A stretch of DNA of 64,000 bases from Candidatus Dojkabacteria bacterium (GCA_030583825.1 CP129477.1:382308-446307); one strand, 5' to 3'. Positions 9,901-59,938 are shown, counted from the first letter of the stretch. The notes: generated from the sequence alone by a model not told the origin. Program-made: numbers and translations.

Positions 9901-12900
9901 CAAGTGACCATTGCCCCCAGATTGACCGTCGTCATCAATATAAATTGTGCCGGGGCCTCCCCAATTGGATATGCCACCACCAAACGATTGAATATTCGAC
10001 TTCGTTGTAATAGGGAAAGACCCTCGTATTGACTCATAAATTGCAATACGTCCTCCGCTACCACCACTACCACCGTCATTGGAGCCTCCATTTGTTGTTA
10101 TCAGTCCATTTCCGTTAATACTGTTCGCAACTACCCATAACGATCCACCTGCTCCGGTTCCAAGACCTGGAAATCCCTTTACTCCATTCCCTCCACGCGC
10201 TGTAAGTCCTCCATTGACCGTTAATGTTCCCGTAATGTTAAGCTTGATTGCTCCACCTCCGGTTCCTCCGTCTGAAATGTTACCGTAATAGTTTCCATTA
10301 TTACCGCCACTACCAAGAGTTACTGGTTCTTTGACTCGACCGTACGGAGCGCCAACTCCGTTGTAACCATATCCTCCGTGAGATGCACCGCCTTCACCGT
10401 TTCCGCCATAGCCAGGGCCACTGTTTATTGCATACCCTCGGCCATCTGCGCTAACAAGCCCGCCAGTCTCAATTGTAAAATCATCAAGAACATTTAGCGT
10501 TACGCCATATTCATTTAGGTTGGCTTCATTGTTATCTTCTGGAACAGAATTATTACCAACGTATGAAGTCAGATAGAACTGTCCTTGGTTTTTTACCAGA
10601 ACAGAAGTGAACTGATAATTGTCCTGATTTGGTGCATGCAAGTTTTGACGCTTCTGAGTTCGCGCATAGAGAGTTACAATTGCCGGATTCGTACCGTTTC
10701 CAATTGTTAATGAGTCTGCTCCAGACAATTCTCCTAAAATATTGAGGTTTACTCTATCAACAGTAAATACATATGGCACCTGAAGCGTTCCTTCCGGCTC
10801 AATCTTTGAAACAGTGTTATCACCGTCAATGCCGTCTTCATCGAGAATACGAAGAGTTGAGTCAATGCCCATTACCCGAAGATGACCATACTCTTTTACA
10901 TGAATTTTAGTAAATTCCTGGATTGGATTTGCATCGTCATACGGAATACCTGCACTGTTCGTGTTTTTACCATCGTTATTAACCCACAATTCTCCGTTTC
11001 CACCTGATTGACCGTCGTTATCAATATAGATTGTGCCGGGGCCTCCCCAATTGGATACGCCACCACCAAATGCTGTGACTTTTGTTCTGTCGGTAATAGG
11101 ATAATCTCCGCGAGTATTTTCATAAATTGCGATGCGACCTCCACTGCCACCACTTGCTCCATCGTTTGACCCTCCATTTACATTGAGTAGTCCATTACCA
11201 TTAATTGTGTCGGCAATAATCCATAGTGAGCCACCCGCACCGGTTCCAAGGCCAGGGAATCCTTTAACCCCATTGCCTCCGCGAGATGTAATTTCTCCGT
11301 TAACAACCAAATCTCCTCCAGTTATGATCTTGACTGCTCCACCGCCACGGCCTCCCGTTGAAATATTACCGTAATAGTTTCCATCCTGGCCACCACTACC
11401 CATTGTTAATGGATTTTTTACGCTTCCATACGGCAGTCCGACCGCGCTCACACCATATCCTCCATGCGATCCGCCTGCTTCTCCGTTTCCACCGTAACCA
11501 GGGCCAGTATTTGTATTATAACCACGTCCATCAGCGCTTACTTTACCACCTGATTGGACATCAAAATTTCCTGAAACCGTTATGCTTACGCCATAGTCAT
11601 CGAGATTCACTGCATTGTTATCTGTTGTTACAGAAGAGTTTCCGTCATATGAAACAAGCGCAAATTCTCCCTGACTTTTAACAGTGATCGTTGAAAATGA
11701 ATAATGATCGTGGTTAGGAAAGTGATTGCTCTGACGCTTTTGTGTTCGAGCATATAAAGTCATTACTGCAGGATGTGTACCATTTCCAACAGTGAGTGTT
11801 GTTGCGCCAATATAATCACCAATGATGTTCAAATTTATGCGATCCACAGTAAAAGTTTCTGGAATATCGAGCATACCTTCGGGTTCTACTTTCGATGTTG
11901 TATTGTCGCCTTCTAGGCCATCTTCATTAGCGATTTTAAGGGTGGAACCAATTCCTAATACTCGGAGGTGACCGTATTCTTTGACGTAAATTTTATTAAA
12001 CTCTTGAAGTGGCTTGTCTGGGTCAAACGGAATTCCCGCACTGTTCGTGTTGTTTCCATTATTATTCACATAAAGATCTCCATTACCGCCTGTGTCGCCA
12101 TCTGCATCAATATAAATTGTTCCTGGCCCACCAATTGTTGAAGACCCTCCTCCAAATGCTTGCATGTTCGCTTTATTGCCAAGTGGAAATGTTCCTGTAT
12201 TGGACTGATAAACTGCAATACGTCCTCCACTTCCGCCATTCGAGTCTTGATTTACACCACCATTCGCTCGAATAAGTCCATCTCCATTGAGGGAAGTTCC
12301 AGATAACCAAATACTTCCACCTGCTCCTGTTCCCAAGCTTGGAAAACCCTTTACTCCGGGGCCACCATTTGCGGAAATAGTCCCATTTACCGTAATTGTT
12401 GCTGTAGAGATGAGACGAATTGCTCCACCTCCAGTTCCACCATCTGAAGTATTCCCAAAATAGTTACCTCCTTGACCTCCGCTACCAAGAGTTGCCGGCT
12501 CTTGTACACTACCATATGGCCCATTGGCGGCATTAATTCCATATCCTCCATGTGATCCACCAGCTTCACTATTGCTGCCATAGCCTGGGCCACCATTCTG
12601 ACCGTATCCTTGTCCATCTGCAGAAATAACACCACCATCTTCGACTTCAAATGCATCGGCGAGAACTGTCGTGCTAAAGTCGTTTGCGTAGTTTGCATCA
12701 AGACTGTCATAACCTCTCAAAGTTAATGTTGCACCATTTCTTACATAGAGAGTTCCCAATCCACGGCAGTCAAATACACCACCAGGGACGTCAATCGCAT
12801 TCCATGTTTGATTCGTGTCAACATCAATATCTGGACAACTGCCAATTTCAGATACAAATGTAATGCTCTTAGAAACACCTGTATTTGAGTTTCCATCTGT

Positions 12901-14796
12901 TGCTTTTATTTTCATGACTTCGCCAAATGTGTATTGTGCCGTTGTTGTTTGTCCTTCTCCATTTACAAGGTTTACAGAAGGTGGACTTAGGGTTCCACTA
13001 CCGGGAGTTACATTATCTGCGAGTACCGGAGTGAGCGCTACATTTCCTGAAAATGAGACTAAGTTGTTAAATTCGTCGTAGGAACGTACTGTCACTGTGA
13101 AATTTTCATTAATAACTGCAATGTCAGGAACTGTTACTCCGTAATGATGTAACTCACCTGCATCAGCGCTTGCCGTAAAAGTAACTGTTCCGATACTGTT
13201 TCGGGTTGCCGTCATTGTATTGTTATTTGAGCCGGCAATCTGTCCGAGTGTCCATGCCACTGTTCCGAGTCCATTTTCGTTAGTAATTGTTGTTGAAGGA
13301 AGAACACTTCCATTACCAGCCGTTACGGCCCAAACAATTGTCTCACCAGGAACGCCAAATCCTGCAGAATCTTGTACTTTTGCAATAACACTTTGAGACA
13401 AAGCACTACCGGCTGTTCCCGTTTGATTATCGCCACTTACTTTTACAATAGCACTAGGATTTCCTACAATAAGAAAATCTCTATCGTTTGTACCATTGCC
13501 ACCGAAATCTACCCAGTGACCTGGAATACCGGAGTTATTAATTGCTCGGATTCTAAATTTGTATTCTTTACTCACCGGAACAGAAGCCACAGTCATCTGC
13601 CCACAATCGCTTGGAGGCGCAGCACAAAGCTGAGGATTAGACTGAAAAGTTCCCTGCGTATGTGTAAAGATTCCTGTAAACGCTTCGTTTTTATCGCGAA
13701 GCTCAATTTGCAAACGAACTTGCGCAGAGGGGTTAGGATCTTGTAAATCTGCTACAAATTTAATACTTGTCTGACGAGTAACACCACCAACCGCGATTTC
13801 GTTGCTTGTTGCATCTTCGTAAATATGCACAATTGTTGGAGTTTCCGGGCGGCAAGCTGGCCCAATAAGTGTGCCGTTTTGTCCATCTTGTCCGGCATCT
13901 CCACCCAAGACACTAACTGCACCGGAAAACGTATTGCCACTTTCACAAATCATCACAATACGTCCTCCACCGCCACCTCCGCCTTGTCGTAAGGCTGTAG
14001 CATCAGCGCCACCACCACGAGCATCAACTCGGCCAGTTCCTGCAAATGTTGTCGCTTCTATCCATACGCTTCCACCTGCACCACCACCACCGGACGACTT
14101 GCCATCTGCGCTTTTCTGTCCATTTTCTCCATTTGCTGATACTTCTCCATTAATTGTTACTGTGCCGGAGGCTTCAACTTTAAGAGCACCTCCACCATTT
14201 CCACCAACACCTGCATTTCCACTGTTTCCTCCTGCACCGCCCAAAGTAATTGGCTGTTCATTAAACCCAAAAGCAACGCCAGGAGTTGCACTTGCATTCA
14301 CTCCATCGGTAATACCTTCTCCACCGGCTCCACCATGACCACCACCGGAGCCTGCTGTGTCGCCTGCGGCATCGGCTGCATTTCCATTTGTGTCGTTACT
14401 CGTTGATGAATATCCCTGCCCATCTGCCGAAACTTTTCCACCGGCATCCACTGTTAAGTTGGCTACTTTTATAACAATTCCTTTATCATTTGAAGAACTT
14501 GTGTCGTTCGTAATATGGCTCTTTATTACCAAGTTTCCACCAGATGCAACGGTAATATCCTGACCAGAACAATCAATAATATTGTCATTTGCAAGAGGAG
14601 TTACTTCCAATGTTGTAGAAATAGTACCGGGAAGTACGCACGATATAGCAGTAACATTTGTAAGTGCTGAGAATAAGTAAAATACGCTAATTGAGGCAAT
14701 GCTCATGACAATGCCAAGCGACAGAATTCTTACCAAGAACTGACGTGATACTCTCTGTAAGAAGTTTGTAAGAACAGGTGAAATATTATGGTTCAT
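3910..14796 (-). CDS. Giant (3,628 aa) membrane-anchored, Gly-rich beta-helix-like repeat surface protein. It contains Ig-like/FN3 domains, a LamG-like domain, a PT-rich linker, a carboxypeptidase-regulatory-like domain and a C-terminal multi-TM region.
   Basis: Single uninterrupted 10,887-nt ORF. Along the protein: N-terminal TM anchor (aa ~25-53), Gly-rich ADGxGY...GGxGGS.W blocks, bacterial Ig-like (Big) motif SGDNQTGTAGSALSQSV, 4.6 tandem ~362-aa repeats, LamG/ConA-like jelly-roll (YTIELWATF...GWHHIATV...HFYVDGNKV), PT linker (PLPTPTPTEF...IPTPTMTPFPTIPP), CarboxypepD_reg-like segment (VVYDGVTKKPLGRAIIRLFDAGSGKIVTTAVTDAQGVFKL), and at least 4 C-terminal TM helices. Confidence 0.85.
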   Translation of the reverse strand: MNHNISPVLTNFLQRVSRQFLVRILSLGIVMSIASISVFYLFSALTNVTAISCVLPGTISTTLEVTPLANDNIIDCSGQDITVASGGNLVIKSHITNDTSSSNDKGIVIKVANLTVDAGGKVSADGQGYSSTSNDTNGNAADAAGDTAGSGGGHGGAGGEGITDGVNASATPGVAFGFNEQPITLGGAGGNSGNAGVGGNGGGALKVEASGTVTINGEVSANGENGQKSADGKSSGGGGAGGSVWIEATTFAGTGRVDARGGGADATALRQGGGGGGGRIVMICESGNTFSGAVSVLGGDAGQDGQNGTLIGPACRPETPTIVHIYEDATSNEIAVGGVTRQTSIKFVADLQDPNPSAQVRLQIELRDKNEAFTGIFTHTQGTFQSNPQLCAAPPSDCGQMTVASVPVSKEYKFRIRAINNSGIPGHWVDFGGNGTNDRDFLIVGNPSAIVKVSGDNQTGTAGSALSQSVIAKVQDSAGFGVPGETIVWAVTAGNGSVLPSTTITNENGLGTVAWTLGQIAGSNNNTMTATRNSIGTVTFTASADAGELHHYGVTVPDIAVINENFTVTVRSYDEFNNLVSFSGNVALTPVLADNVTPGSGTLSPPSVNLVNGEGQTTTAQYTFGEVMKIKATDGNSNTGVSKSITFVSEIGSCPDIDVDTNQTWNAIDVPGGVFDCRGLGTLYVRNGATLTLRGYDSLDANYANDFSTTVLADAFEVEDGGVISADGQGYGQNGGPGYGSNSEAGGSHGGYGINAANGPYGSVQEPATLGSGGQGGNYFGNTSDGGTGGGAIRLISTATITVNGTISANGGPGVKGFPSLGTGAGGSIWLSGTSLNGDGLIRANGGVNQDSNGGSGGRIAVYQSNTGTFPLGNKANMQAFGGGSSTIGGPGTIYIDADGDTGGNGDLYVNNNGNNTNSAGIPFDPDKPLQEFNKIYVKEYGHLRVLGIGSTLKIANEDGLEGDNTTSKVEPEGMLDIPETFTVDRINLNIIGDYIGATTLTVGNGTHPAVMTLYARTQKRQSNHFPNHDHYSFSTITVKSQGEFALVSYDGNSSVTTDNNAVNLDDYGVSITVSGNFDVQSGGKVSADGRGYNTNTGPGYGGNGEAGGSHGGYGVSAVGLPYGSVKNPLTMGSGGQDGNYYGNISTGGRGGGAVKIITGGDLVVNGEITSRGGNGVKGFPGLGTGAGGSLWIIADTINGNGLLNVNGGSNDGASGGSGGRIAIYENTRGDYPITDRTKVTAFGGGVSNWGGPGTIYIDNDGQSGGNGELWVNNDGKNTNSAGIPYDDANPIQEFTKIHVKEYGHLRVMGIDSTLRILDEDGIDGDNTVSKIEPEGTLQVPYVFTVDRVNLNILGELSGADSLTIGNGTNPAIVTLYARTQKRQNLHAPNQDNYQFTSVLVKNQGQFYLTSYVGNNSVPEDNNEANLNEYGVTLNVLDDFTIETGGLVSADGRGYAINSGPGYGGNGEGGASHGGYGYNGVGAPYGRVKEPVTLGSGGNNGNYYGNISDGGTGGGAIKLNITGTLTVNGGLTARGGNGVKGFPGLGTGAGGSLWVVANSINGNGLITTNGGSNDGGSGGSGGRIAIYESIRGSFPITTKSNIQSFGGGISNWGGPGTIYIDDDGQSGGNGHLWVNNNGQNTNSAAIPYDAVNPVQEFTQIHVREYGHLRVMGIDSTLKITSESGLEGDATVSKIEPEGLLDLPEIFTVDRVNLTVLGDITGADNLTIGNETNPAAVTLYARTQKRQNDRFPNQDVYEFESLHVKSQATMTLVSYVGNTGTPNDNNEQNANEYGVTLTIAENLQIDANGVIHADGRGFGINSGPGYGGNGEAGGSHGGFGVSAVGAPYGSVKTPVTLGSGGQNGNYFGNISDGGTGGGAIRLAVSGILQNNGRISANGGNGVKGFPGLGTGAGGSIWISANTLNGNGLIAANGGENSGANGGSGGRIAIYENLRGNFPIESKTNLQSFGGGVNNWGGPGTVYIDGDGAIGGNGDLRVNNNNRNTLSAAVPYNVLDPVQEFSKIYVKEYGHLRVMGIDSTLKITSEEGLEGDNTASRVEPEGMLELPEAFTIDRINLTILGDISGGNNLTVGNGQNPASLTMYARTQKRQNTRYPNQDIYTFDSFTVKQQSTVILNSYDGSAATEGDNNSQGLDDYGVTINVNGDVTVESSAKIHADGTGYGINTGPGYGGNGEAGGSHGGYGISTAGTAYGSIKQPVTLGSGGQNGNYFGNISQGGTGGGAIKIAATGIFTNNGVVSANGGNGVKGFPGLGTGAGGSLWIAANTINGTGSFTVNGGQNSGAKGGSGGHLALYEIVRGSFPVTSDSNVQSLGGGVSNWGGPGTVYTEALNLHGAGQGNFRVVNANRAGRVQDMEAGEWTFHDVTLGQNVTMWIKSDTTVLASNAPSLTPSAPAATENSLALWHLDEVTGTGAYLLDSSSYGRHATPVKEPLPETGKFSNGYNFNATQKVITFPEVPTTTDYTIELWATFPLPTTPDGYRTLVAKNGGTYHHILVNGDGILGAYFSSFYSSGFDVDSLAAGWHHIATVAQGSQTHFYVDGNKVGTINTKTTQPISIIGGYSSTAGNQFAGKLDEIHIQNRALTAREIEAHARGLTLEQFEQLEPYMVGQGVALNLSGDFTLDTGAVINGSGRGFPSSKGAGKGRIGVGQTGGSGGAHGGDGGTAESDGINTAPGGGIKYGDQYRPLTLGSGGGASNLGAIGGNGGNAFAVLANQGAITVKGSILMNGTGGATGSPGGGGGAGGSILLYGDSCDIGGTLSAMGGNGGDGTFDGGGGGGGRISILFASGPCEVSGSISVAFGAGASAQEGQIGTYPPEPNSVPLPPDFENQYAPVSPGSSSELIRRDKATQVFAQQFRQPVYETPVMSEGSVLGAGEEVIPVGGVIGGTTVTLKANAYDAGASPGSPKSLRLEFELKEVNQSFDGVTNVHTSNTIVFTGGAPQLLSATITNLEVGTSYKWRVRTVNVSNGLFSDWKSFGNNADSESDFTISSTVAIELIPSKTNLLTGEVIELTVIARDQNNNVDTTYRGEVTFSSTSLTADLPDNYTFTVGDNGQKVFQNVLFYEAGNFTITVEDVHTPALTDTAAFTVAIPSVPNLTFTSSDYFVAQNQVITLQWTSQFMTNLIIDNGIGSVPANGTVNVSIPQTMSFMIQGTRPDDSIVTMTITITVNNSETPLPTPTPTEFVINPLPSGTPIPTPTMTPFPTIPPNAMCPVIQEFKLSDSFATPDERVVLSWKVIDATSVAIDTIGSEVAPNGLYGFVADRSQQFTIKAVGENCQKTQTVSLFFVGFTPQDLSAGVVGAIIVAETVLPILGGAAQGNIWLAGVGLIERLRRRIPWGVVYDGVTKKPLGRAIIRLFDAGSGKIVTTAVTDAQGVFKLTPKAGKYFIQVTKIGYVFPSAIVPGETDDAFMNVYHGETLEIKADNAPVTLTIPIDPEKTEDKAKLTWRLVKTRALFVFEKLNSALLYGGFAYSIWATFITPSFVNMVVLTFYGGFFALKAYLLRIPDFGTVSKGVLQPVAGVEVGLYETEFQTLVTRTFTDKSGKYAFYVPNRDYFIRLIDATYKMTNTKATNEKLYVNAEKDSAIRIVRENISVKQLKSSKVSASGTKALK
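7770..12834 (-). repeat. Intragenic tandem repeat array: about 4.6 copies of a ~1,086-nt unit (362 aa) encoding Gly-rich modules of the giant protein.
   Basis: The SADG(Q/R)GY motif recurs every ~362 aa (aa ~725, ~1087, ~1450, ...). DNA copies are about 75-85% identical (for example 8045-8160 vs 9130-9240). Recurring antisense shadow ORFs at 7895, 10079 and 11132 (PAPVPRPGNPFTP...) mark the period. Confidence 0.8.
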
Positions 14797-21403: not shown

Positions 21404-21831
21404 TGGTGGAGCTGAGGGGAATCGCACCCCTGTCTATTTGATCTGAAAAAGAAGCATCTCCCAGGACAGACCTGTTAGTAGGTTTCGGCGTTGTCTTTAA
21501 CAGGACGAAAAAACTCAGCCTATCCGCTGTTAGTACGGAACACTATGCCGCAGAGCGCACAGTATTACGACATGAACCTTCTTACTCCCTCGCGACCGCT
21601 AGTCATGTACAGGAGGATCGTGAAGTATTGCCGGTAATTAGGCAATCGCGTAGTTTAATGCAACGCTAGCACCTGCATTCATTGCGTTAGCAACGTTTGC
21701 GAAGATACCGTTGATTGCATTAGCAACACGGTTAAAAGTTTTGTTTGCACTTTTGTGCTTTTGTCGTTTAACGAGAGACACTCGCCTGGCTTCTTCTTTT
21801 AATGAGCAAATATCTAAAGCTTGTCAGCCCC
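21404..21831 (-). ncRNA. ssrA: tmRNA (transfer-messenger RNA).
   Basis: The reverse complement reads 5'-GGGGCUGACAAGCUUUAG ... GACAGGGGUGCGAUUCCCCUCAGCUCCACCA-3'. It has a 7-bp acceptor stem with the G3:U70 wobble (alanine identity element), a T-arm (AGGGG/UGCGAUU/CCCCU), discriminator A and an encoded CCA. An internal tag reading frame ends ...GASVALNYAIA-UAA (plus coordinates ~21638-21700), resembling the canonical ...YALAA degron. The region has no protein ORF of 60 aa or more. Confidence 0.8.
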
Positions 21832-54660: not shown

Positions 54661-56487
54661 TTACAGTGTACTTAATCGCTGTAATTCTTTCAACGAAGTC
54701 GCATCTATGGGCTTTTTTTCGCGAAATTTCATAAACCTTGGAAAACGCAATGCTAAACCAGACGTGTGCAACGGGCTTTTTGTAATCTCATCGGCTTCGA
54801 CTTCAACAACTAGCTCGGGGAACATCCATTTATGGGGAATTAACGATTTTGGAACACTTACTTGCTGAGGCTGTTCTGCAACAACAAATTCATCGCACTT
54901 TCGCTTAATCTCCTGCCATATTTCATCTGTAATTCCCGTTCCGATTTTTGTCACTGACACAAACATATCTTTTTCTTCGTCGTATAGGCCGGCCAAGAGT
55001 GCACCAATTCCAAACTTTGCAAGCCTTCCTTCGCCAAAGTAATAGCCCAACAATACGAGGTCAACGGTATCTGCAAGCTCTTTTTTCATTGCGCGCTTAA
55101 ACTTGATCCATTCGAAATTACGAACACCTGGCTCATATTTGCCTGCTCCATTTTTGAAAATGACTCCTTCCAACCCTTCTGCAACATATTCCATAAAGAT
55201 TTTATCTGCTTCGACAATATCGGTGGTGATATGAAATGGAGTTTTGGTAAATACATAGCTTTTTTCCTGGACATCAAGAAATGAAAGTAATGCTTTTCTC
55301 TCTGCCAACGGAAGAGACATGCATTCGCTTGTTTCTTTGTACAAAATGTCAAACACAAAAATTCTTACCGGTACCGAAGTTTGCGCATCTCCAATGTTAT
55401 GCTTTCTTCGACGCGTCATTGTTTCCTGGTAGGTCATGAATTGCTCGACAGCATCGTTATATCCAATAACTTCTCCGTCCAGAACCAGCCCGTTGCTATT
55501 CGTCCCATGAACTTTATCAAATCGCTCAATCAAAGTTTTTGCTGCTTCTGTAATTTCAGGAAACATGTTGGTCATATCCTCAAGATTGCGGGAATATAAC
55601 TTTACTTCAATATCTTGTGTTAATACCGGAAGCAGTGTTGCTGGCTCTTCCTCTTCAAGGTAAGCAAACCACACTCTATCACCAAAAGACTTTTGCTTCA
55701 CTTCTTCTTTAAAAACATGCACCTGGATACGTAATCCATCGTATTTAGGCTCAATATACGGCTCTGGAATACGTGCAAAGACATCTTCTACTGTAGACTC
55801 TCTTTCTACTAACTTGGAAGCAACAGGAACTCCTGGAACAAAAGAAATATTTTCAATTCCTTCGCGACCCTTTGTTTTGTATGTGTATGCGATATAGCCT
55901 ACATCGCTGACCATTCCCGACGCTTTTCGCAATATTTCTGAAAATACTTTTGGATCTTCTTCATATGTTGCAATTGCATCAAGGATTGTTTTGTCACTCG
56001 CGCCAAGTCTGAGTTTTCCATTCAGAATGCGAAGCATATACTTTCCGGTTTTTGCATCTAATTTTTCTAAGAATGTTCTAATCGCAAGTTGCTTTGCCTG
56101 CTGCGATCCTTTTCCTGTAATTTTTGCAATATCCCACAACGTGACATACGCCTCTGTAACGGTGAATATTTCCAATTTTTCGTTTACAGCAAATTGTGCA
56201 AATACTGATCCTGCATCACCAGCTTGAGACATTGCCTGAGTAAAGACCTCGTCTGAAAGATTTAGTGTTTCTTTTACGACCTTTTCGAGTGTTTTTCCTG
56301 CGATTTGAAACTCCACAGGTACAAAGTCTGGCGTAAGCCTTCCAAGAAGAAGATATGTCGTCATTGCTGCCTCTTCAGCCGAAAGCTCTTTGTATAGATT
56401 TGCGGCTATATCGCGCATTTCAAGGCGTCCAGATGTCTGTTCGATTTTTTCGAAATGGGAAATAACGAAAGAAAGTGTTTCTAGCAT
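54661..56487 (-). CDS. ATP-dependent DNA ligase (Lig1/archaeal-type).
   Basis: Adenylation motif I KYDGLRIQVH, N-terminal DNA-binding domain, OB-fold C-terminus, 608 aa. Confidence 0.9.
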   Translation of the reverse strand: MLETLSFVISHFEKIEQTSGRLEMRDIAANLYKELSAEEAAMTTYLLLGRLTPDFVPVEFQIAGKTLEKVVKETLNLSDEVFTQAMSQAGDAGSVFAQFAVNEKLEIFTVTEAYVTLWDIAKITGKGSQQAKQLAIRTFLEKLDAKTGKYMLRILNGKLRLGASDKTILDAIATYEEDPKVFSEILRKASGMVSDVGYIAYTYKTKGREGIENISFVPGVPVASKLVERESTVEDVFARIPEPYIEPKYDGLRIQVHVFKEEVKQKSFGDRVWFAYLEEEEPATLLPVLTQDIEVKLYSRNLEDMTNMFPEITEAAKTLIERFDKVHGTNSNGLVLDGEVIGYNDAVEQFMTYQETMTRRRKHNIGDAQTSVPVRIFVFDILYKETSECMSLPLAERKALLSFLDVQEKSYVFTKTPFHITTDIVEADKIFMEYVAEGLEGVIFKNGAGKYEPGVRNFEWIKFKRAMKKELADTVDLVLLGYYFGEGRLAKFGIGALLAGLYDEEKDMFVSVTKIGTGITDEIWQEIKRKCDEFVVAEQPQQVSVPKSLIPHKWMFPELVVEVEADEITKSPLHTSGLALRFPRFMKFREKKPIDATSLKELQRLSTL

Positions 56488-56572: not shown

Positions 56573-59500
56573 ATGTCACACAAGCAATTTGATTTAACCA
56601 ATGTCTCGTCGTTTTTTCACGATGTTGAGACACCTGTACTCTCCTTTTGGAAAGAGAACAGTATTTTCGAGAAATCTGTGACACAACGACCAGAGAGCGA
56701 CCATTTCGTATTTTACGATGGCCCGCCATTTGTCACAGGAACTCCTCACTACGGACACTTACTTTCGAGCATTTTAAAAGACATTATTCCCCGCTACCAA
56801 ACAATGAAAGGCAAAAGAGTTGAGCGCGTATGGGGATGGGATTGTCATGGACTTCCTGTCGAAGAAAAAGTTGAACGAACATTAGGTACAAAAAACCGTC
56901 GTGACATTGAGAATGTTGTCGGTATCCAGAAGTTTATTGATGCCTGTGTTGCATATGTGAAAGATACTTCCGCAGAATGGCCATGGTATGTTGATCGTAT
57001 TGCCCGCTGGGTTGATATGGAAAAACCTTACCGAACAATGGATAAAAACTATATGGAATCCGTCATCTGGGTATTCAAGCAGCTTTACGAAAAAGAGCTT
57101 GTGTACAAAGGAAAACGTGTTTCTTTGTACTGCACGCGATGTGGAACTCCAATTTCAAATTTTGAGGTCGCAATGGACAACTCATATGCAGACTTGGAAG
57201 ACCCTTCTGTCTACGTAAAGTTCAAAGCAAAATACCACAAGTCAGGACTAGGAGTTGGAATTGTTATCAAGAACGAAAAAGGCGAAGTTTTAATGATGCG
57301 ACGTAATGAACCCGGTCGTGAACAAGTTTGGGGAATCGTGGGTGGAAAAGTTGAAGAGTCAGATAAATCACTGGAAGAAACCGTACGACGCGAAATGGTC
57401 GAAGAAATTGGACTTGAACCCACCAATATTCAGTATTACACATACTCTATTGATCTTTTTGAAGGACGTTTATTCAAAACATACCACGTTGCAGCAACAA
57501 TTACTGGAACACCAAAGTTACAGGATGAAAATATTGGTACAGAGCTAAAGTGGTTCGCAGCAAAAGACCTTCCATGGGAAGATATGCATATCCCGACACG
57601 AAACTGCTTAAAAGAAGCATTGGAAGGAACTCCACGGACAGAATCTAACTACAGCACGTATAAACCAGATGTGTATATCGTTGCGTGGACAACGACTCCA
57701 TGGACATTACCATCAAACGCAGCACTCGCAATTGATAAAGAAAAAGAATACGTATCATTCTCGTTCCAAGGAAAAGAAGAAATTCTCGTTGTGGCAAAAG
57801 AAAGACTCGAGCATGTCGTTAAAGATGAGTCCTACACTCTTGTAGATACATTATTGGGTAAGGACTTGGTCAAATTGCCATATGAACAGCTCTTTTCATA
57901 CTTTGAATCTGCTGAGAATGACTATCGCGTATACGCCGCAGACTTTGTCAGTATGGGTGATGGTACCGGTATTGTTCATGTTGCTCCTGGATATGGCGAA
58001 GACGATACAGAATTAGGAAAAGAACATACACTTTCGGTTTTTGATGCTGTCAATGACGAAGGAAAACTTATTGAAAAGGTTACTGATTTTGCAGGTCAGT
58101 ACATAAAAGATGCCGATAACGAGATTATTGCCAATCTTACTGAGAGAAATTTAATGCTCAGAGCAGAGAAAGCTGTCCACAGTTATCCACTTTGTTATCG
58201 CTGCCAGACACCGCTTATCTACAAAGCACAGGATTCTTGGTATGTTGACATTGCAACACTTCGTCCACAACTCGAAGCAAATAATGAAGGAATTCACTGG
58301 GTACCTGAACACCTAAAACAGGGACGTTTTCTTGCAGGAATAAAATCTGCCCCAGATTGGGGAGTTTCCCGTACACGCTACTGGGCAACACCAATGCCAA
58401 TTTGGGAATGTAATAAGTGTGAGACTCGCGATGTATTAGGCTCAATTGCCGAAATTGAAGAGAAATCCGGTAAGAAAGTGACTGATTTGCACCGCCCGTA
58501 CATTGATGAGCATACCTATGCCTGTAAATGTGGAGGAACAATGACTCGCGTAGAAGAAGTTCTCGACTGCTGGTTGGAATCTGCATCTATGCCATTTGCA
58601 CAGTTCCATTACCCATTTGAAAATAAAGAGAAATTTGAGAAGAATTTTCCTGGTGACTACATCGTTGAGTATATTCCGCAAACTCGAGCATGGTTTTATG
58701 TTATGCATGTGATTTCCACAGCACTATTCGGCAAGAATGCATTTAGAAACGCAATCGGAACAGGAACAATTAACGGAACCGACGGACGAAAAATGAGTAA
58801 AAGCTATGGAAACTATCCTGACCCGAAGCAAATTCTCGAAAAGTTTGGTGGAGACGCATTTAGAATGTCTATGGCAAACAGCGTATTAACTCATGGCGAA
58901 GACGTAAATGTCTCAGAAGAGTTAATTGGCCAACAGGTAAAAGATTTGCTCATGCCGCTTATGAACATTTATAAGTATTTTGGATTGTATGCAAACCAGC
59001 ATAATGTCGAACCACAATTCGGTGTCGCATCAAACAATATTCTGGATAAATGGGTGCTTGCACGAGTAAAACAGGCGACACAACAAATCCAAACAGGATT
59101 AGACGCATATGATGTTCAAGGCGCTGCACGAGAACTTAAGCCGATGTTAGACGATGTTTCTACATGGTACATTCGTCGTTCACGCGATAGATTCGTTGCA
59201 GGCGATAACGAAGCAATAAGTACATTGTTTATAACTCTCTTTTTGGTACTTCGCGCAATGGCACCGTTTACTCCATTTATTGCAGAGTTTTTATATCTCC
59301 GAATAAAACATGCTTTGCCAGAAATGATGCAGCTTGAATCAATTCATTTGCACCTCTTCGATGGCTTTAACGAAGTTTCCACTGACGAACAAACACTTCT
59401 CGACGATATGGAACATGTTCGCACAACCGCGTCATTGGCATTAAGTATTCGCGATGAAAAGCAATTGCCAGTTAAACAGCCGCTTTCTTCTGTTACATTT

Positions 59501-59938
59501 GCTGCACCGCATGAGCTTACGCAGGAAATGCTGGAGCTCATCCAAAGTGAAGTAAATGTTTTGAGTATCTCGCAAGTTCCAACTGCCGGCGATATTCCTC
59601 AGACTTTCGAGCGAAAAGATAAAGAAGATTTATCAGTTGCACTCGACATTGCCTTGACTCCAGAGCTTATTGAGAAAGGTGTTGTTCGTGAAGTTATTCG
59701 AGCAATTCAGGTTTCTCGAAAGAAGTCAGGATTTGAGCTTGGTGAAAAAGCGAAAGCAACGCTCACAACGCACGAAGACGCGCTTGTAGATATCGTGAAC
59801 AAATACGCCGAGACCATTTCTTCGCAAACGGGGCTTGCTTCATTAAAAGTGAACAAAGCAATTGTCGAAGGAGAACATGGTGAATTGTTCACACTCAAAC
59901 AAGGAGAATACCCATTAGCAGTGTCACTTGAGCATTAG
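56573..59938 (+). CDS. ileS: Isoleucyl-tRNA synthetase (type 2, eukaryote/archaeal-like) with an inserted NUDIX hydrolase domain.
   Basis: HIGH motif (PHYGHLLS), KMSKS (RKMSKSYGN), CP1 editing domain (WTTTPWTLPSN). A ~135-aa insertion (aa ~222-358) lies between VYVKFKA and YIVAWTTTPWTLPSN. Within it, WGIVGGKVEESDKSLEETVRREMVEEIGLE matches a Nudix box. Confidence 0.9.
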   Translation: MSHKQFDLTNVSSFFHDVETPVLSFWKENSIFEKSVTQRPESDHFVFYDGPPFVTGTPHYGHLLSSILKDIIPRYQTMKGKRVERVWGWDCHGLPVEEKVERTLGTKNRRDIENVVGIQKFIDACVAYVKDTSAEWPWYVDRIARWVDMEKPYRTMDKNYMESVIWVFKQLYEKELVYKGKRVSLYCTRCGTPISNFEVAMDNSYADLEDPSVYVKFKAKYHKSGLGVGIVIKNEKGEVLMMRRNEPGREQVWGIVGGKVEESDKSLEETVRREMVEEIGLEPTNIQYYTYSIDLFEGRLFKTYHVAATITGTPKLQDENIGTELKWFAAKDLPWEDMHIPTRNCLKEALEGTPRTESNYSTYKPDVYIVAWTTTPWTLPSNAALAIDKEKEYVSFSFQGKEEILVVAKERLEHVVKDESYTLVDTLLGKDLVKLPYEQLFSYFESAENDYRVYAADFVSMGDGTGIVHVAPGYGEDDTELGKEHTLSVFDAVNDEGKLIEKVTDFAGQYIKDADNEIIANLTERNLMLRAEKAVHSYPLCYRCQTPLIYKAQDSWYVDIATLRPQLEANNEGIHWVPEHLKQGRFLAGIKSAPDWGVSRTRYWATPMPIWECNKCETRDVLGSIAEIEEKSGKKVTDLHRPYIDEHTYACKCGGTMTRVEEVLDCWLESASMPFAQFHYPFENKEKFEKNFPGDYIVEYIPQTRAWFYVMHVISTALFGKNAFRNAIGTGTINGTDGRKMSKSYGNYPDPKQILEKFGGDAFRMSMANSVLTHGEDVNVSEELIGQQVKDLLMPLMNIYKYFGLYANQHNVEPQFGVASNNILDKWVLARVKQATQQIQTGLDAYDVQGAARELKPMLDDVSTWYIRRSRDRFVAGDNEAISTLFITLFLVLRAMAPFTPFIAEFLYLRIKHALPEMMQLESIHLHLFDGFNEVSTDEQTLLDDMEHVRTTASLALSIRDEKQLPVKQPLSSVTFAAPHELTQEMLELIQSEVNVLSISQVPTAGDIPQTFERKDKEDLSVALDIALTPELIEKGVVREVIRAIQVSRKKSGFELGEKAKATLTTHEDALVDIVNKYAETISSQTGLASLKVNKAIVEGEHGELFTLKQGEYPLAVSLEH
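57236..57646 (+). other. NUDIX hydrolase domain embedded in IleRS.
   Basis: Nudix fold motifs GIVIKNEKGEVLMMRRNEPGREQVWGIVGGKVE and REMVEEIGL (GX5EX7REUXEEXGU-like, with a one-residue register shift). Flanked on both sides by canonical IleRS sequence in the same frame. Confidence 0.75.

What the first reader, a model, noticed from the sequence alone, without database searches (positions are those of the whole stretch)
57236..57646. Isoleucyl-tRNA synthetase carrying an internal NUDIX hydrolase domain
An otherwise canonical type-2 IleRS (HIGH, KMSKS, WTTTPWTLPSN editing domain) has a ~135-aa in-frame insertion between the conserved VYVKF segment and the start of CP1. The insertion has the hallmarks of a Nudix fold: WGIVGGKVE...REMVEEIGL. 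Aminoacyl-tRNA synthetases generate Ap4A and related dinucleotide polyphosphates and mis-activated aminoacyl-adenylates as side products, and both are Nudix substrate classes. A covalently attached Nudix module would be a new way to couple aaRS activity to nucleotide-derivative hydrolysis. I am not aware of this architecture being described.
Basis: partly seen in the sequence, partly recalled or inferred. Interest (0 to 1): 0.8.

Follow-up and report, generated by a model that had tools for sequence, protein, structure and literature searches.

The report
Nudix hydrolase embedded inside isoleucyl-tRNA synthetase
A Dojkabacteria (candidate phyla radiation) bacterium has a nucleotide-cleaving Nudix enzyme domain inserted in the middle of its essential isoleucyl-tRNA synthetase; the architecture is real, conserved and apparently undescribed, and it is one of several hydrolase modules this lineage has repeatedly built into the same enzyme.

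Summary
ORF 56573-59938 (+) is an uninterrupted 1121-aa type-2 IleRS with HIGH, KMSKS and both CP1 editing motifs intact. It carries a 143-aa in-frame insert (aa 220-362) that is a genuine Nudix domain: Pfam 76 bits against a cutoff of 21, AF2 pLDDT 90, TM 0.77-0.79 to MutT/NUDT15-type structures, REUxEE intact. It is not a chimera. The protein equals NCBI WKZ30561.1, and the same insert at the same site occurs in 22 sampled IleRS clusters and 10 GTDB species genomes, nearly all labelled Dojkabacteria. The insert has diverged in step with the IleRS core (r = 0.85) and was lost cleanly at least twice. A different Nudix family sits at a second site inside CP1 in a sister clade. Other relatives carry CYTH-like, histidine-phosphatase and alpha/beta-hydrolase modules, so 84 of 223 sampled IleRS are decorated. 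The substrate is unknown and no Nudix equivalog cutoff is met. Ap4A-type hydrolysis is plausible but untested. Aminoacyl-AMP is not a canonical Nudix substrate, and repeated loss shows the module is accessory. No paper describing this was found. Verdict: a new variant of a known kind, of real interest, with the mechanism open.

The parts
56573..59938 (+). ileS gene: 1121-aa type-2 isoleucyl-tRNA synthetase with an internal Nudix domain (identical to NCBI WKZ30561.1)
   Evidence: Single ORF. TIGR00392 805 bits against cutoff 621. AF2 pLDDT 91.1, pTM 0.79. Foldseek top hits are IleRS2 8C9D/8C8V, target-normalised TM 0.80-0.81. Exact match in NCBI.
56747..56758 (+). HIGH signature (HYGH, aa 59-62) of the class I catalytic site
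57185..57229 (+). Beta-strand aa 205-219 (YADLEDPSVYVKFKA) that leads from the catalytic core into CP1. The insert starts right after it.
   Evidence: DSSP strand E205-219 in the full model; alignment
57230..57658 (+). The 143-aa insertion (aa 220-362) relative to insert-less orthologs, here called 'site 1'
   Evidence: Alignments with P0008, P0014 and P0019-25. hmmalign against an insert-less IleRS HMM places a 139-aa insert after model position 219. Coordinates verified.
57245..57583 (+). Nudix domain core (aa 225-337)
   Evidence: PF00293 71-76 bits. AF2 of the insert alone: pLDDT 90, pTM 0.86. Foldseek 4KYX, NUDT15, MutT and 4DYW: TM 0.77-0.79, E ~1e-10. Profile against PDB: 4KYX 46.7 bits.
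57341..57415 (+). Nudix box GGKVEESDKSLEETVRREMVEEIGL (aa 257-281), one residue longer than the consensus, with Asp for the first Glu
   Evidence: alignment to 4KYX
57389..57406 (+). REUxEE catalytic helix motif REMVEE (R273, E274, E277, E278), invariant in all homologous inserts
   Evidence: Invariant columns R55, E56, E59, E60 of A1. REUxEE is intact in 22 of 22 inserts and in all 10 GTDB loci.
57452..57469 (+). Family-specific invariant motif D-x-F-E-G-R (aa 294-299) after the Nudix helix. Candidate extra metal or substrate ligands.
   Evidence: Invariant D76, F78, E79, G80, R81 in A1. The functional role is inference.
57587..57598 (+). Family-specific invariant H-I-P-T (aa 339-342) at the start of the C-terminal Nudix helix
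   Evidence: Invariant H121, I122, P123, T124 in A1
57626..57670 (+). Coil linker aa 352-366 that returns from the Nudix domain to the CP1 strand
   Evidence: No regular secondary structure and slightly lower pLDDT (82-89) in the full model. Length varies among homologs.
57686..57706 (+). Thr-rich CP1 editing peptide WTTTPWT (aa 372-378), about 10 residues after the insert
   Evidence: invariant W372-T378 in A3
57962..58006 (+). Second CP1 editing motif GTGIVHVAPGYGEDD (aa 464-478)
58790..58804 (+). KMSKS signature (aa 740-744)

Best explanation
The gene encodes a working type-2 IleRS with a self-contained MutT-like Nudix pyrophosphohydrolase domain inserted into a length-variable hairpin loop. 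That loop lies between the strand entering CP1 (aa 205-219) and the strand carrying the Thr-rich editing peptide (aa 367-378). Shown here: the domain is real, folds on its own, and keeps the metal-binding REUxEE glutamates. It was acquired early in Dojkabacteria IleRS evolution, has co-diverged with the IleRS core under similar constraint, and has been deleted cleanly in several descendant lineages. Inferred: it is catalytically active and hydrolyses a nucleoside-polyphosphate compound on the surface of IleRS. The most plausible candidates are ApnA/Np4-type by-products of adenylate chemistry, cleaved asymmetrically to AMP + ATP, or an NTP-type 'housecleaning' substrate. On this model the coupling is by fixed 1:1 co-expression and co-localisation and not by substrate channelling, and the module is accessory to aminoacylation. 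It belongs to a lineage-wide habit of building phosphohydrolase-type modules into IleRS: two unrelated Nudix families, a CYTH-like module and a histidine phosphatase.
For: The domain is real and has the right fold: PF00293 76 bits; AF2 pLDDT 90 alone and 82-96 in context; Foldseek TM 0.77-0.79 to 4KYX, NUDT15 and 4DYW, with Ap4A/Ap6A hydrolases 3I7U and 1VC8 also among the hits. Catalytic residues: R, E, E, E of REUxEE are invariant in 22 of 22 inserts at 39-66% identity and in 10 GTDB genomes; a D/E is retained at the Gx5E position. IleRS is intact: HIGH, KMSKS and both editing motifs are present, and the fold matches IleRS2. Vertical inheritance and constraint: pairwise identity of insert versus core gives r = 0.85, means 52.5% and 56.3%. 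Losses: Nudix-less P0008 and P0014 fall within a 100/100 bootstrap group of Nudix-bearing proteins, and P0019-25 within a 95/100 group; P0008 sits in the same gene neighbourhood as the window. Functional theme: a second Nudix family was independently inserted at another site. It scores 4-22 bits on the site-1 HMM, against 52-91 bits for free Nudix proteins. A CYTH-like module matches the N. europaea protein NE1496 (2FBL/3TYP) at E 2e-10. I identify NE1496 with the characterised CYTH triphosphatase NeuTTM (PMC3440374) from memory; searches did not confirm that link. His_Phos_1 is seen as well. Where two Nudix modules coexist, one has decayed (P0027), consistent with selection for one active copy. 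aaRSs are a main source of Ap4A and Nudix enzymes degrade it (PMC10148737).
Against: No substrate assignment is possible. The best NCBIfam Nudix equivalogs (MutT 39 bits against cutoff 98; RppH 35 against 139; NudC 31 against 158) all fail, and no known specificity motif was seen. From the strand topology, the insert hangs at the outer end of the CP1 hairpin, roughly 20-25 A from the editing pocket and farther from the synthetic site. Repeated clean losses show the module is dispensable for IleRS. One genome with the fusion also has a free-standing canonical Nudix 1.5 kb away (L007), so the fusion is not simply 'the' cellular Nudix, though that does not show coupling either. About a third of the His-phosphatase modules in sister IleRS have lost the catalytic RH[GA], so not all inserted modules are kept for catalysis. 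Ap4A is diffusible, so tethering gives no obvious kinetic benefit.
Confidence: 0.5

Rival explanations
1. Hitch-hiking housekeeping enzyme. The Nudix is an ordinary housecleaning hydrolase (MutT/NTP-pyrophosphatase-like) that landed in a permissive surface loop of an essential, constitutively expressed protein. It has no mechanistic link to isoleucine activation or editing, and IleRS is just a tolerant scaffold.
For: aaRSs are among the preferred hosts for domain insertions in general (PMC13114784). Site 1 is a length-variable loop. Unrelated modules (alpha/beta Ser-hydrolase, His phosphatase, an unknown 118-aa module) occupy the same few loops. There were repeated clean losses. The closest sequence and structure relatives are generic MutT-like proteins.
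Against: The modules are mostly phosphohydrolase-type, and Nudix was acquired twice independently in IleRS, which looks non-random. In the exhaustive search, the only multidomain hosts carrying this Nudix family were IleRS. A free-standing Nudix coexists in L007. The insert is conserved almost as strongly as the IleRS core.
Confidence: 0.27
2. RNA-end enzyme. The Nudix acts on the tRNA held by IleRS, or on another RNA, as an RppH/NudC-like 5'-pyrophosphohydrolase or decapping (NAD/Np4 cap) activity. It might work together with the CYTH-like (RNA-triphosphatase-like) and phosphatase modules seen in relatives.
For: RppH and NudC are among the weak family and fold matches. CP1 sits next to the acceptor end in IleRS-tRNA complexes (general knowledge; 8WND and 1QU2 are among the structural matches). 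Nudix, TTM and phosphatase are the enzyme types that process RNA 5' ends (general knowledge; PMC8233210 lists RNA triphosphatase among CYTH activities).
Against: The insert is acidic (pI 5.3, net -5), like the rest of the protein, so it has no basic RNA-binding character. RppH and NudC equivalog scores are far below cutoff. Mature bacterial tRNAs normally have 5'-monophosphate ends (general knowledge). There is no direct evidence.
Confidence: 0.08
3. In-situ immunity module. The embedded hydrolase destroys a natural isoleucyl-nucleotide-mimic (Trojan-horse type) inhibitor at its target, analogous to GNAT-mediated acetylation of aaRS-inhibitor warheads.
For: GNATs are immunity determinants against aaRS-targeting warheads (bioRxiv 10.64898/2025.12.02.691738). 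NCBIfam holds a curated 'ileS_w_GNAT' model, i.e. IleRS with an accessory modifying domain. Presence/absence among close orthologs is patchy, as is typical of conflict genes.
Against: Known aaRS-inhibitor warheads are acyl-sulfamoyl or phosphoramidate compounds without a pyrophosphate bond (general knowledge), so they are poor Nudix substrates. The insert is old and vertically inherited, not mobile. No biosynthetic or resistance context is visible around ileS.
Confidence: 0.05
4. Non-catalytic module. The Nudix fold serves as a ligand sensor (NrtR-like) or as a structural or interaction surface that modulates CP1 movement, not as an enzyme.
For: The Nudix box deviates from consensus: an extra residue, Asp for the first Glu, and Gly of EExG replaced by N/D in P0005, P0006, P0011 and P0015. 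About a third of the His-phosphatase modules in sister IleRS are catalytically dead yet retained. The N-terminal junction is tight: a 3-residue turn between the IleRS strand and the first Nudix strand.
Against: R and all three E of REUxEE are invariant across 22 lineages. Non-catalytic Nudix domains typically lose these (general knowledge). In the one pair with two Nudix modules, box decay is visible, showing what relaxed selection looks like (P0027).
Confidence: 0.09
5. Artefact: assembly chimera, frameshift or mis-joined contig creating a false fusion.
For: None found.
Against: The frame is uninterrupted and composition is uniform. The protein is identical to one on a 1.09-Mb NCBI contig. 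The same insert at the same site occurs in 22 sampled IleRS clusters from JGI, NCBI, ENA and Logan, and in 10 GTDB genomes including a complete chromosome, CP129470.1. The full-length model is confident.
Confidence: 0.01

Closest known systems
Type-2 (eukaryote-like, mupirocin-resistant) bacterial IleRS, e.g. Priestia megaterium IleRS2 (PDB 8C8V/8C9D) and Thermus thermophilus IleRS (1ILE)
   Same: Overall fold (target-normalised TM 0.80-0.87), HIGH/KMSKS, CP1 editing motifs, DUF5915-type C-terminal domain, and an ileS equivalog score above cutoff.
   Different: The known enzymes have only a short hairpin loop where this protein has a 143-aa Nudix domain.
Small free-standing MutT-type Nudix hydrolases (Rickettsia felis 4KYX, Burkholderia 4DYW, human NUDT15, E. 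coli MutT; Ap4A/Ap6A hydrolases 3I7U/1VC8 more distantly)
   Same: Alpha/beta/alpha Nudix fold, size, and REUxEE metal-binding helix.
   Different: Only 20-27% identity. The Nudix box is one residue longer, with Asp at the first Glu position. There are family-specific invariant motifs (Y-x-K-x-G-x-G-x-G, D-x-F-E-G-R, H-I-P-T). The domain is embedded in another enzyme. No equivalog cutoff is met. The best free-standing relative scores 91 bits against 183-222 bits for close family members.
NCBIfam NF040702 'ileS_w_GNAT' (isoleucine--tRNA ligase, N-acetyltransferase domain-containing)
   Same: A curated precedent for an IleRS with an accessory small-molecule-modifying enzyme domain. By coordinate arithmetic on the hit, the extra ~186 residues lie N-terminal to our aa 404, so possibly in the same region (inference).
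   Different: A GNAT and not a Nudix. Our protein scores 285 bits against a 1999-bit cutoff, so it is not a member. I could not find a paper on it.
Mycobacterial MutT1 (PDB 5GGC/5GG6): Nudix domain plus histidine-phosphatase domain in one polypeptide
   Same: The same pair of modules (PF00293 + PF00300) is found in the relatives P0123, P0276, P0292, P0296 and others. MutT1 appears among the fold matches of the insert.
   Different: In MutT1 the two domains are fused end to end and stand alone. Here they are inserted separately into different loops of IleRS, and the window's own protein has only the Nudix.
aaRS / Ap4A / Nudix axis acting in trans (LysRS and other aaRSs make Ap4A; RppH, NUDT2 and other Nudix enzymes degrade it)
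   Same: The same two activities that the fusion would bring together (PMC10148737).
   Different: The proteins are separate in all described systems. No evidence yet that this Nudix takes Ap4A.
CP1 editing domain itself (a hydrolytic domain inserted into the class Ia Rossmann fold)
   Same: A nested domain-insertion architecture that adds a hydrolytic activity to the synthetase. aaRSs are recognised insertion hosts (PMC13114784).
   Different: CP1 is universal in IleRS/ValRS/LeuRS and acts on aminoacyl-tRNA. The Nudix is a lineage-restricted second-order insertion into CP1's entry hairpin and is dispensable.

Membership tests
Nudix superfamily (PF00293) | Pfam HMM score above the gathering threshold | tested here: met
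   76.3 bits (insert alone) and 71.2 bits (whole protein) against a cutoff of 21.1
Nudix superfamily (PF00293) | Nudix box GX5EX7REUXEEXGU | tested here: met
   GGKVEESDKSLEETVRREMVEEIGL: REUxEExGU is exact. The upstream part has one extra residue, with Asp at the first-Glu position. Relatives P0028 and P0029 have the canonical spacing with Glu. Motif definition from PMC10148737.
Nudix superfamily (PF00293) | Alpha/beta/alpha sandwich fold | tested here: met
   AF2 pLDDT 90, pTM 0.86. Foldseek probability 1.00, TM 0.77-0.79 to 4KYX, NUDT15 and 4DYW.
Nudix superfamily (PF00293) | Divalent-cation-dependent hydrolysis of a nucleoside diphosphate linked to X | not testable with these tools
   Needs enzymology
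Isoleucyl-tRNA synthetase, type 2 | ileS equivalog HMM above the curated cutoff | tested here: met
   TIGR00392 805.2 bits against 621.4
Isoleucyl-tRNA synthetase, type 2 | HIGH and KMSKS class I signatures; CP1 Thr-rich and GTGxVHxAPxxGxxD editing motifs | tested here: met
   HYGH 59, KMSKS 740, WTTTPWT 372, GTGIVHVAPGYGEDD 464
Isoleucyl-tRNA synthetase, type 2 | Structure closer to IleRS2 / eukaryote-like IleRS than to IleRS1 | tested here: met
   IleRS2 8C9D/8C8V E ~1e-87, 29-30% identity, against IleRS1 8C9F/8C9E E ~1e-54, 21% identity. DUF5915 C-terminal domain present.
Isoleucyl-tRNA synthetase, type 2 | Aminoacylation of tRNA-Ile and editing of Val | not testable with these tools
   Needs biochemistry. 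Whether it is the only ileS in the genome could not be checked; only the 64-kb window was available.
MutT 8-oxo-dGTP diphosphatase (TIGR00586 / PRK10776) | Equivalog HMM above the curated cutoff | tested here: not met
   39.2 bits against 97.9, and 33.3 against 148
RppH RNA pyrophosphohydrolase (NF001937 etc.) | Equivalog HMM above the curated cutoff | tested here: not met
   34.8 bits against 139
NudC NAD(H)/NAD-cap diphosphatase (NF001299) | Equivalog HMM above cutoff; zinc-ribbon and N-terminal domain | tested here: not met
   30.6 bits against 158. Only the catalytic Nudix core aligns to NudC structures (target-normalised TM 0.41-0.43).
Nudix Ap4A hydrolases | Family-specific sequence signature or closest structural neighbour | tested here: inconclusive
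   3I7U (Aquifex Ap4A hydrolase) and 1VC8 (Ndx1 Ap6A hydrolase) are among the fold hits (ranks 28-36) but not the best. No dedicated HMM was available. The downstream Tyr that I recall as a marker was not seen at the expected spacing (recalled from memory and checked by eye, so a weak test).
NCBIfam ileS_w_GNAT (NF040702) | Exception HMM above the curated cutoff | tested here: not met
   285 bits against 1999

The most novel reading that the evidence does not exclude
Dojkabacteria IleRS is a scaffold for a modular, IleRS-coupled nucleotide-polyphosphate or RNA-end processing activity. Nudix (acquired twice independently), a CYTH-like triphosphatase-type module and a histidine phosphatase, inserted into loops of CP1 and the neighbouring connective region, would act on a compound that IleRS makes or holds. 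Candidates are ApnA/p4A from the adenylate, or a phosphorylated tRNA end. This would add a previously unknown, genetically hard-wired layer of by-product clearance or signalling control to an aminoacyl-tRNA synthetase.
Probability: 0.15. Interest if true: 0.85.

Novelty: new variant of a known kind. Interest (0 to 1): 0.68.

Why it matters
Aminoacyl-tRNA synthetases are the main cellular source of Ap4A-type dinucleotides, and Nudix enzymes are among their main sinks. In every described system the two are separate proteins. A conserved natural fusion of the two gives a direct experimental handle on whether by-product or alarmone turnover is coupled to tRNA charging, and the natural insert-less orthologs in the same gene context serve as built-in controls. 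The broader pattern is that 84 of 223 sampled IleRS from Dojkabacteria and neighbouring Patescibacteria lineages carry one to three hydrolase modules at a few fixed loops, with two unrelated Nudix acquisitions. This is an unusually clear case of recurrent domain insertion into an essential enzyme in a reduced-genome lineage. It matters for how CPR bacteria organise nucleotide housekeeping. It matters for protein engineering, because it identifies permissive insertion sites in IleRS. It also matters for annotation: PGAP labels these proteins only 'class I tRNA ligase family protein'.

Tried and rejected
(1) A homolog search with the insert alone returned nothing. This was a limit of the word index for short queries and not a real absence, since the full-length search and the exhaustive HMMER search find the family.
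(2) Assembly chimera or frameshift was rejected.
(3) Mobile-element or intein-like insertion was rejected: no flanking repeats, composition the same as the host gene, and the insert co-diverges with the core.
(4) Internal duplication as the origin of the second (site-2) Nudix was rejected: it scores 4-22 bits on the site-1 HMM.
(5) Origin by fusion with a neighbouring Nudix gene: there is no Nudix in the 64-kb window apart from the insert, and none within 10 kb of the Nudix-less ortholog P0008.
(6) Substrate assignment through NCBIfam equivalogs, a PDB profile search and Foldseek gave only generic MutT-like matches.
(7) The apparent 350-424-aa site-2 inserts turned out to be hmmalign artefacts; the CYTH-like module is about 186 aa.
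(8) My first regex counts of the CYTH ExExK and His-phosphatase RHG motifs were unreliable because of window placement. The His-phosphatase count was redone by inspection. The CYTH-like N-terminus reads ExE[KRQ]x and not ExExK, so its catalytic competence is left open.
(9) The Foldseek afdb50 library was unavailable.
(10) Literature searches for IleRS or aaRS with Nudix, Dojkabacteria, CPR or GNAT found no description of the architecture.
(11) I could not obtain model coordinates, so distances between the Nudix cleft and the IleRS sites were not measured.
Full report
OBSERVATION. The window holds one uninterrupted ORF, 56573-59938 on the + strand, of 1121 codons. It is an isoleucyl-tRNA synthetase: TIGR00392 scores 805 bits against a curated cutoff of 621, and PF00133, PF08264 and the C-terminal DUF5915 are present. 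The class I signatures and both CP1 editing motifs are present: HYGH at aa 59, KMSKS at aa 740, WTTTPWT at aa 372 and GTGIVHVAPGYGEDD at aa 464. Aligned to insert-less orthologs, the insertion spans aa 220-362 (57230-57658), which is 143 residues. The Nudix box reads GGKVEESDKSLEETVRREMVEEIGL. The REUxEExGU half is exact. The upstream half is one residue longer than GX5EX7, with Asp where the first Glu is expected. Two relatives (P0028, P0029) have the canonical spacing and a Glu.

IS IT REAL? Base composition is flat across the gene: GC 0.413 in the insert against 0.418 elsewhere. No repeats flank the insert. The protein is identical to NCBI WKZ30561.1, 'class I tRNA ligase family protein [Candidatus Dojkabacteria bacterium]', on a 1,090,595-bp contig. 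A full-length homolog search found the same PF00133+PF00293 architecture in many independent clusters from JGI, NCBI, ENA and Logan at 43-65% identity. Alignment shows the insert at exactly the same position in all of them. A scan of one genome per GTDB species found it in 10 species-level genomes, nearly all labelled Candidatus Dojkabacteria, including the complete 889-kb chromosome CP129470.1. An assembly artefact is therefore excluded for practical purposes.

STRUCTURE. Folded alone from an alignment of 20 inserts, the domain gives mean pLDDT 90 and pTM 0.86 with the strand/helix order of a Nudix sandwich. Foldseek against the PDB returns small MutT-type Nudix enzymes first: Rickettsia 4KYX, human NUDT15, Burkholderia 4DYW and E. 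coli MutT, at TM 0.77-0.79 and E ~1e-10. The NudC catalytic core and the Ap6A/Ap4A hydrolases 1VC8 and 3I7U rank further down. A profile-versus-PDB sequence search gives the same picture. The full-length model is confident (pLDDT 91.1, pTM 0.79), with 82-96 across the insert. In the model, IleRS strand 205-219 is followed by a three-residue turn and then the first Nudix strand, 223-233. The chain returns through a 15-residue coil (352-366) into strand 367-373, which carries the Thr-rich editing peptide. In insert-less relatives these two IleRS strands are joined by a short loop of variable length. So the Nudix replaces a hairpin tip at the edge of CP1. From that topology I infer that it lies some 20-25 A from the editing pocket and farther from the synthetic site. 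I could not measure this because coordinates are not returned.

EVOLUTION. An exhaustive HMMER search of 1.84 billion representatives with the insert profile found only three hits below 1e-30, all IleRS or IleRS fragments. Next came two more distant IleRS with the match at the same residue position (P0123, 106 bits; P0124, 95 bits). Free-standing or tandem Nudix proteins followed at 91 bits or less. The family is thus small and, as a multidomain form, specific to IleRS, with no close free-living relative. Across 21 insert-bearing proteins, pairwise identity in the insert tracks identity in the IleRS core (Pearson r = 0.85; means 52.5% and 56.3%), including the most distant member, P0123 (0.39 against 0.41). 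That fits one old acquisition followed by vertical descent under constraint similar to that on the synthetase itself. R, E, E and E of REUxEE are invariant in 22 of 22 inserts, along with family-specific motifs (Y-x-K-x-G-x-G-x-G at the N-terminal junction, D-x-F-E-G-R, H-I-P-T). The 10 GTDB loci also keep REUxEE. In a neighbour-joining tree of 928 core columns, insert-less proteins are nested inside insert-bearing groups. P0008 and P0014 fall within a 100/100 bootstrap group with the query, P0001, P0002 and P0003. P0019-25 fall within a 95/100 group with P0011-13. P0008 lies in the same gene neighbourhood as the window (DNA ligase, ileS, ComF-like, TrmB, SufS, SNase) and so is an ortholog, not a paralog. 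The domain has therefore been deleted cleanly at least twice and is accessory to IleRS function.

THE WIDER PATTERN. In a sister clade of Dojkabacteria IleRS, a second site (after query aa 399, inside CP1) holds a different Nudix domain: Pfam 50-51 bits, canonical box. It scores only 4-22 bits against the site-1 profile, whereas more than 140 free-standing Nudix proteins score 52-91 bits. It is therefore an independent acquisition from another Nudix subfamily. P0026 carries both Nudix modules. Its sister P0027 also has both, but the site-2 box has decayed (KIIKDNTGY). The same site 2 more often holds a ~186-aa module that Pfam does not recognise. A three-sequence profile of it matches the N. 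europaea protein NE1496 (PDB 2FBL/3TYP) at E 2e-10. I identify NE1496 with the CYTH-family inorganic triphosphatase NeuTTM described in PMC3440374 from memory; searches did not confirm that link. The N-terminal motif of this module is ExE[KRQ]x and not ExExK, so I leave its activity open. A third region holds His_Phos_1 (PF00300; 114 bits in P0123) or a PF06821 serine hydrolase. I aligned 223 sampled IleRS to an HMM of insert-less enzymes and clustered the inserts. Of these, 84 are decorated: CYTH-like + His-phosphatase 23, site-1 Nudix only 19, CYTH-like only 15, His-phosphatase only 8, site-2 Nudix + His-phosphatase 7, and rarer combinations of up to three modules (P0296, 1538 aa). The His-phosphatase catalytic RH[GA] is kept in about 26 and lost in about 14 of 40 inspected. 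In contrast, 0 of 22 site-1 Nudix inserts and 2 of 16 site-2 Nudix inserts have lost REUxEE.

WHAT IT MOST LIKELY DOES. Shown here: a functional-looking IleRS2; an autonomous Nudix fold with all catalytic carboxylates; long-term purifying selection; dispensability. Inferred: the module is an active Mg2+-dependent pyrophosphohydrolase. The substrate cannot be read from the sequence. Every NCBIfam Nudix equivalog is far below its cutoff (MutT 39/98, RppH 35/139, NudC 31/158), and the structural neighbours are generic. aaRSs are a principal source of Ap4A, and Nudix enzymes cleave it to AMP + ATP (PMC10148737). Two unrelated Nudix families plus a triphosphatase-type and a phosphatase module have all been recruited into the same synthetase. 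On that basis I consider hydrolysis of a nucleoside-polyphosphate by-product (ApnA/p4A) the single most attractive specific model, but only at roughly one chance in four. The more general statement, an active nucleotide-polyphosphate hydrolase tethered to IleRS and coupled by co-expression and co-localisation, gets about 0.5.

RIVALS. The main rival, at about 0.27, is that the Nudix is a housekeeping enzyme hitch-hiking in a permissive loop. aaRSs are known to be favoured insertion hosts (PMC13114784), unrelated modules use the same loops, and losses are frequent. Against it are the non-random enzyme classes, the double Nudix acquisition, the IleRS-only distribution of this Nudix family, and the coexistence of a free canonical Nudix 1.5 kb from the fused ileS in L007. 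An RNA-end role (RppH/NudC-like, on tRNA) is conceivable because CP1 borders the acceptor end, but the insert is acidic (pI 5.3). An immunity role against aminoacyl-nucleotide mimics is suggested only by analogy with GNAT immunity proteins (bioRxiv 10.64898/2025.12.02.691738) and by the NCBIfam 'ileS_w_GNAT' model. A purely non-catalytic role is disfavoured by the invariant REUxEE.

NOVELTY. The components are well known. The sequences are in public databases and even carry precomputed PF00133+PF00293 hits. Eight full-text searches found no description of an IleRS or any aaRS with an embedded Nudix, or of the decorated Dojkabacteria IleRS. NCBI's pipeline names the proteins only 'class I tRNA ligase family protein'. 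I class it as a new variant of a known kind: an undescribed, conserved domain architecture, with a lineage-wide pattern behind it that makes a functional link worth testing.

Noticed in passing
Not in the window; proteins P0069, P0075, P0026, P0027, P0273-P0277, P0282, P0292, P0296, P0309, P0315, P0325, P0331 (site 2, equivalent to after window-protein aa 399): A second, unrelated Nudix family (16 proteins) is inserted inside the CP1 editing domain of sister-clade Dojkabacteria IleRS. P0026 and P0027 carry both Nudix modules. The site-2 box is degenerate in P0027 and P0309.
   Followed up: partly
Not in the window; e.g. P0066, P0099, P0105, P0279, P0281 (site 2): A ~186-aa module in about 40 IleRS has no Pfam hit but matches PDB 2FBL/3TYP (NE1496 of N. 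europaea) at E 2e-10. I take NE1496 to be the CYTH triphosphatase NeuTTM, from memory. Its N-terminal motif is ExE[KRQ]x and not the CYTH ExExK, so activity is uncertain.
   Followed up: partly
Not in the window; e.g. P0123 aa 642-819, P0279-P0363 (site 3b, near window-protein aa ~637): A histidine-phosphatase (PF00300) module is inserted in about 42 IleRS. The catalytic RH[GA] is kept in about 26 and lost in about 14 of 40 inspected, which suggests pseudo-enzyme retention in a third of lineages.
   Followed up: partly
Not in the window; P0099, P0273-P0275 (site 3a) and P0296, P0331 (site 1): Alpha/beta serine-hydrolase modules (PF06821) are inserted in IleRS, in two proteins at the very loop that holds the Nudix in the window. 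P0296 (1538 aa) carries three accessory modules.
   Followed up: no
L007 10176-10559 (- strand): A free-standing 128-aa canonical Nudix gene (box GGKLEEGETLRESIIREVEEELGI) lies 1.5 kb from a Nudix-bearing ileS in another Dojkabacteria genome, so the embedded and free forms coexist.
   Followed up: no
window 56573-59938; NCBI WKZ30561.1, MBD3329018.1, MBD3363385.1, MCX6807234.1, MBN1331502.1: NCBI annotation calls these decorated IleRS 'class I tRNA ligase family protein' and not isoleucine--tRNA ligase, presumably because the inserts disturb the naming rule. This is a systematic under-annotation.
   Followed up: no
window 3910-14796 (- strand): A giant 3628-aa ORF whose only hits are a Laminin_G_3/ConA-like domain and a weak alpha-2-macroglobulin MG3 hit. 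It is probably a large surface protein of the kind common in CPR genomes.
   Followed up: no
window 21404-21831 (- strand): Rfam finds a full-length tmRNA here (80.8 bits against a gathering score of 47), but ARAGORN reports no tRNA or tmRNA anywhere in the 64-kb window.
   Followed up: no
window 54661-56487 (- strand): A 608-aa ATP-dependent DNA ligase gene is divergently adjacent to ileS. Its counterpart in L012 hits PF04675/PF01068/PF04679. In L012 an extra 204-aa gene with no Pfam hit lies between the ligase and ileS.
   Followed up: no
NCBIfam NF040702 hit on window protein aa 404-904: A curated 'ileS_w_GNAT' model exists, i.e. an IleRS with an N-acetyltransferase domain. By coordinate arithmetic, its extra ~186 residues lie N-terminal to our aa 404, possibly in the same insertion region. 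I found no literature on it.
   Followed up: no
P0125, P0126, P0127 (283-326 aa): The closest free-standing relatives of the embedded Nudix are tandem double-Nudix proteins (two PF00293 stretches; one has a Nudix zinc ribbon). Their organisms are unnamed in the sources.
   Followed up: no
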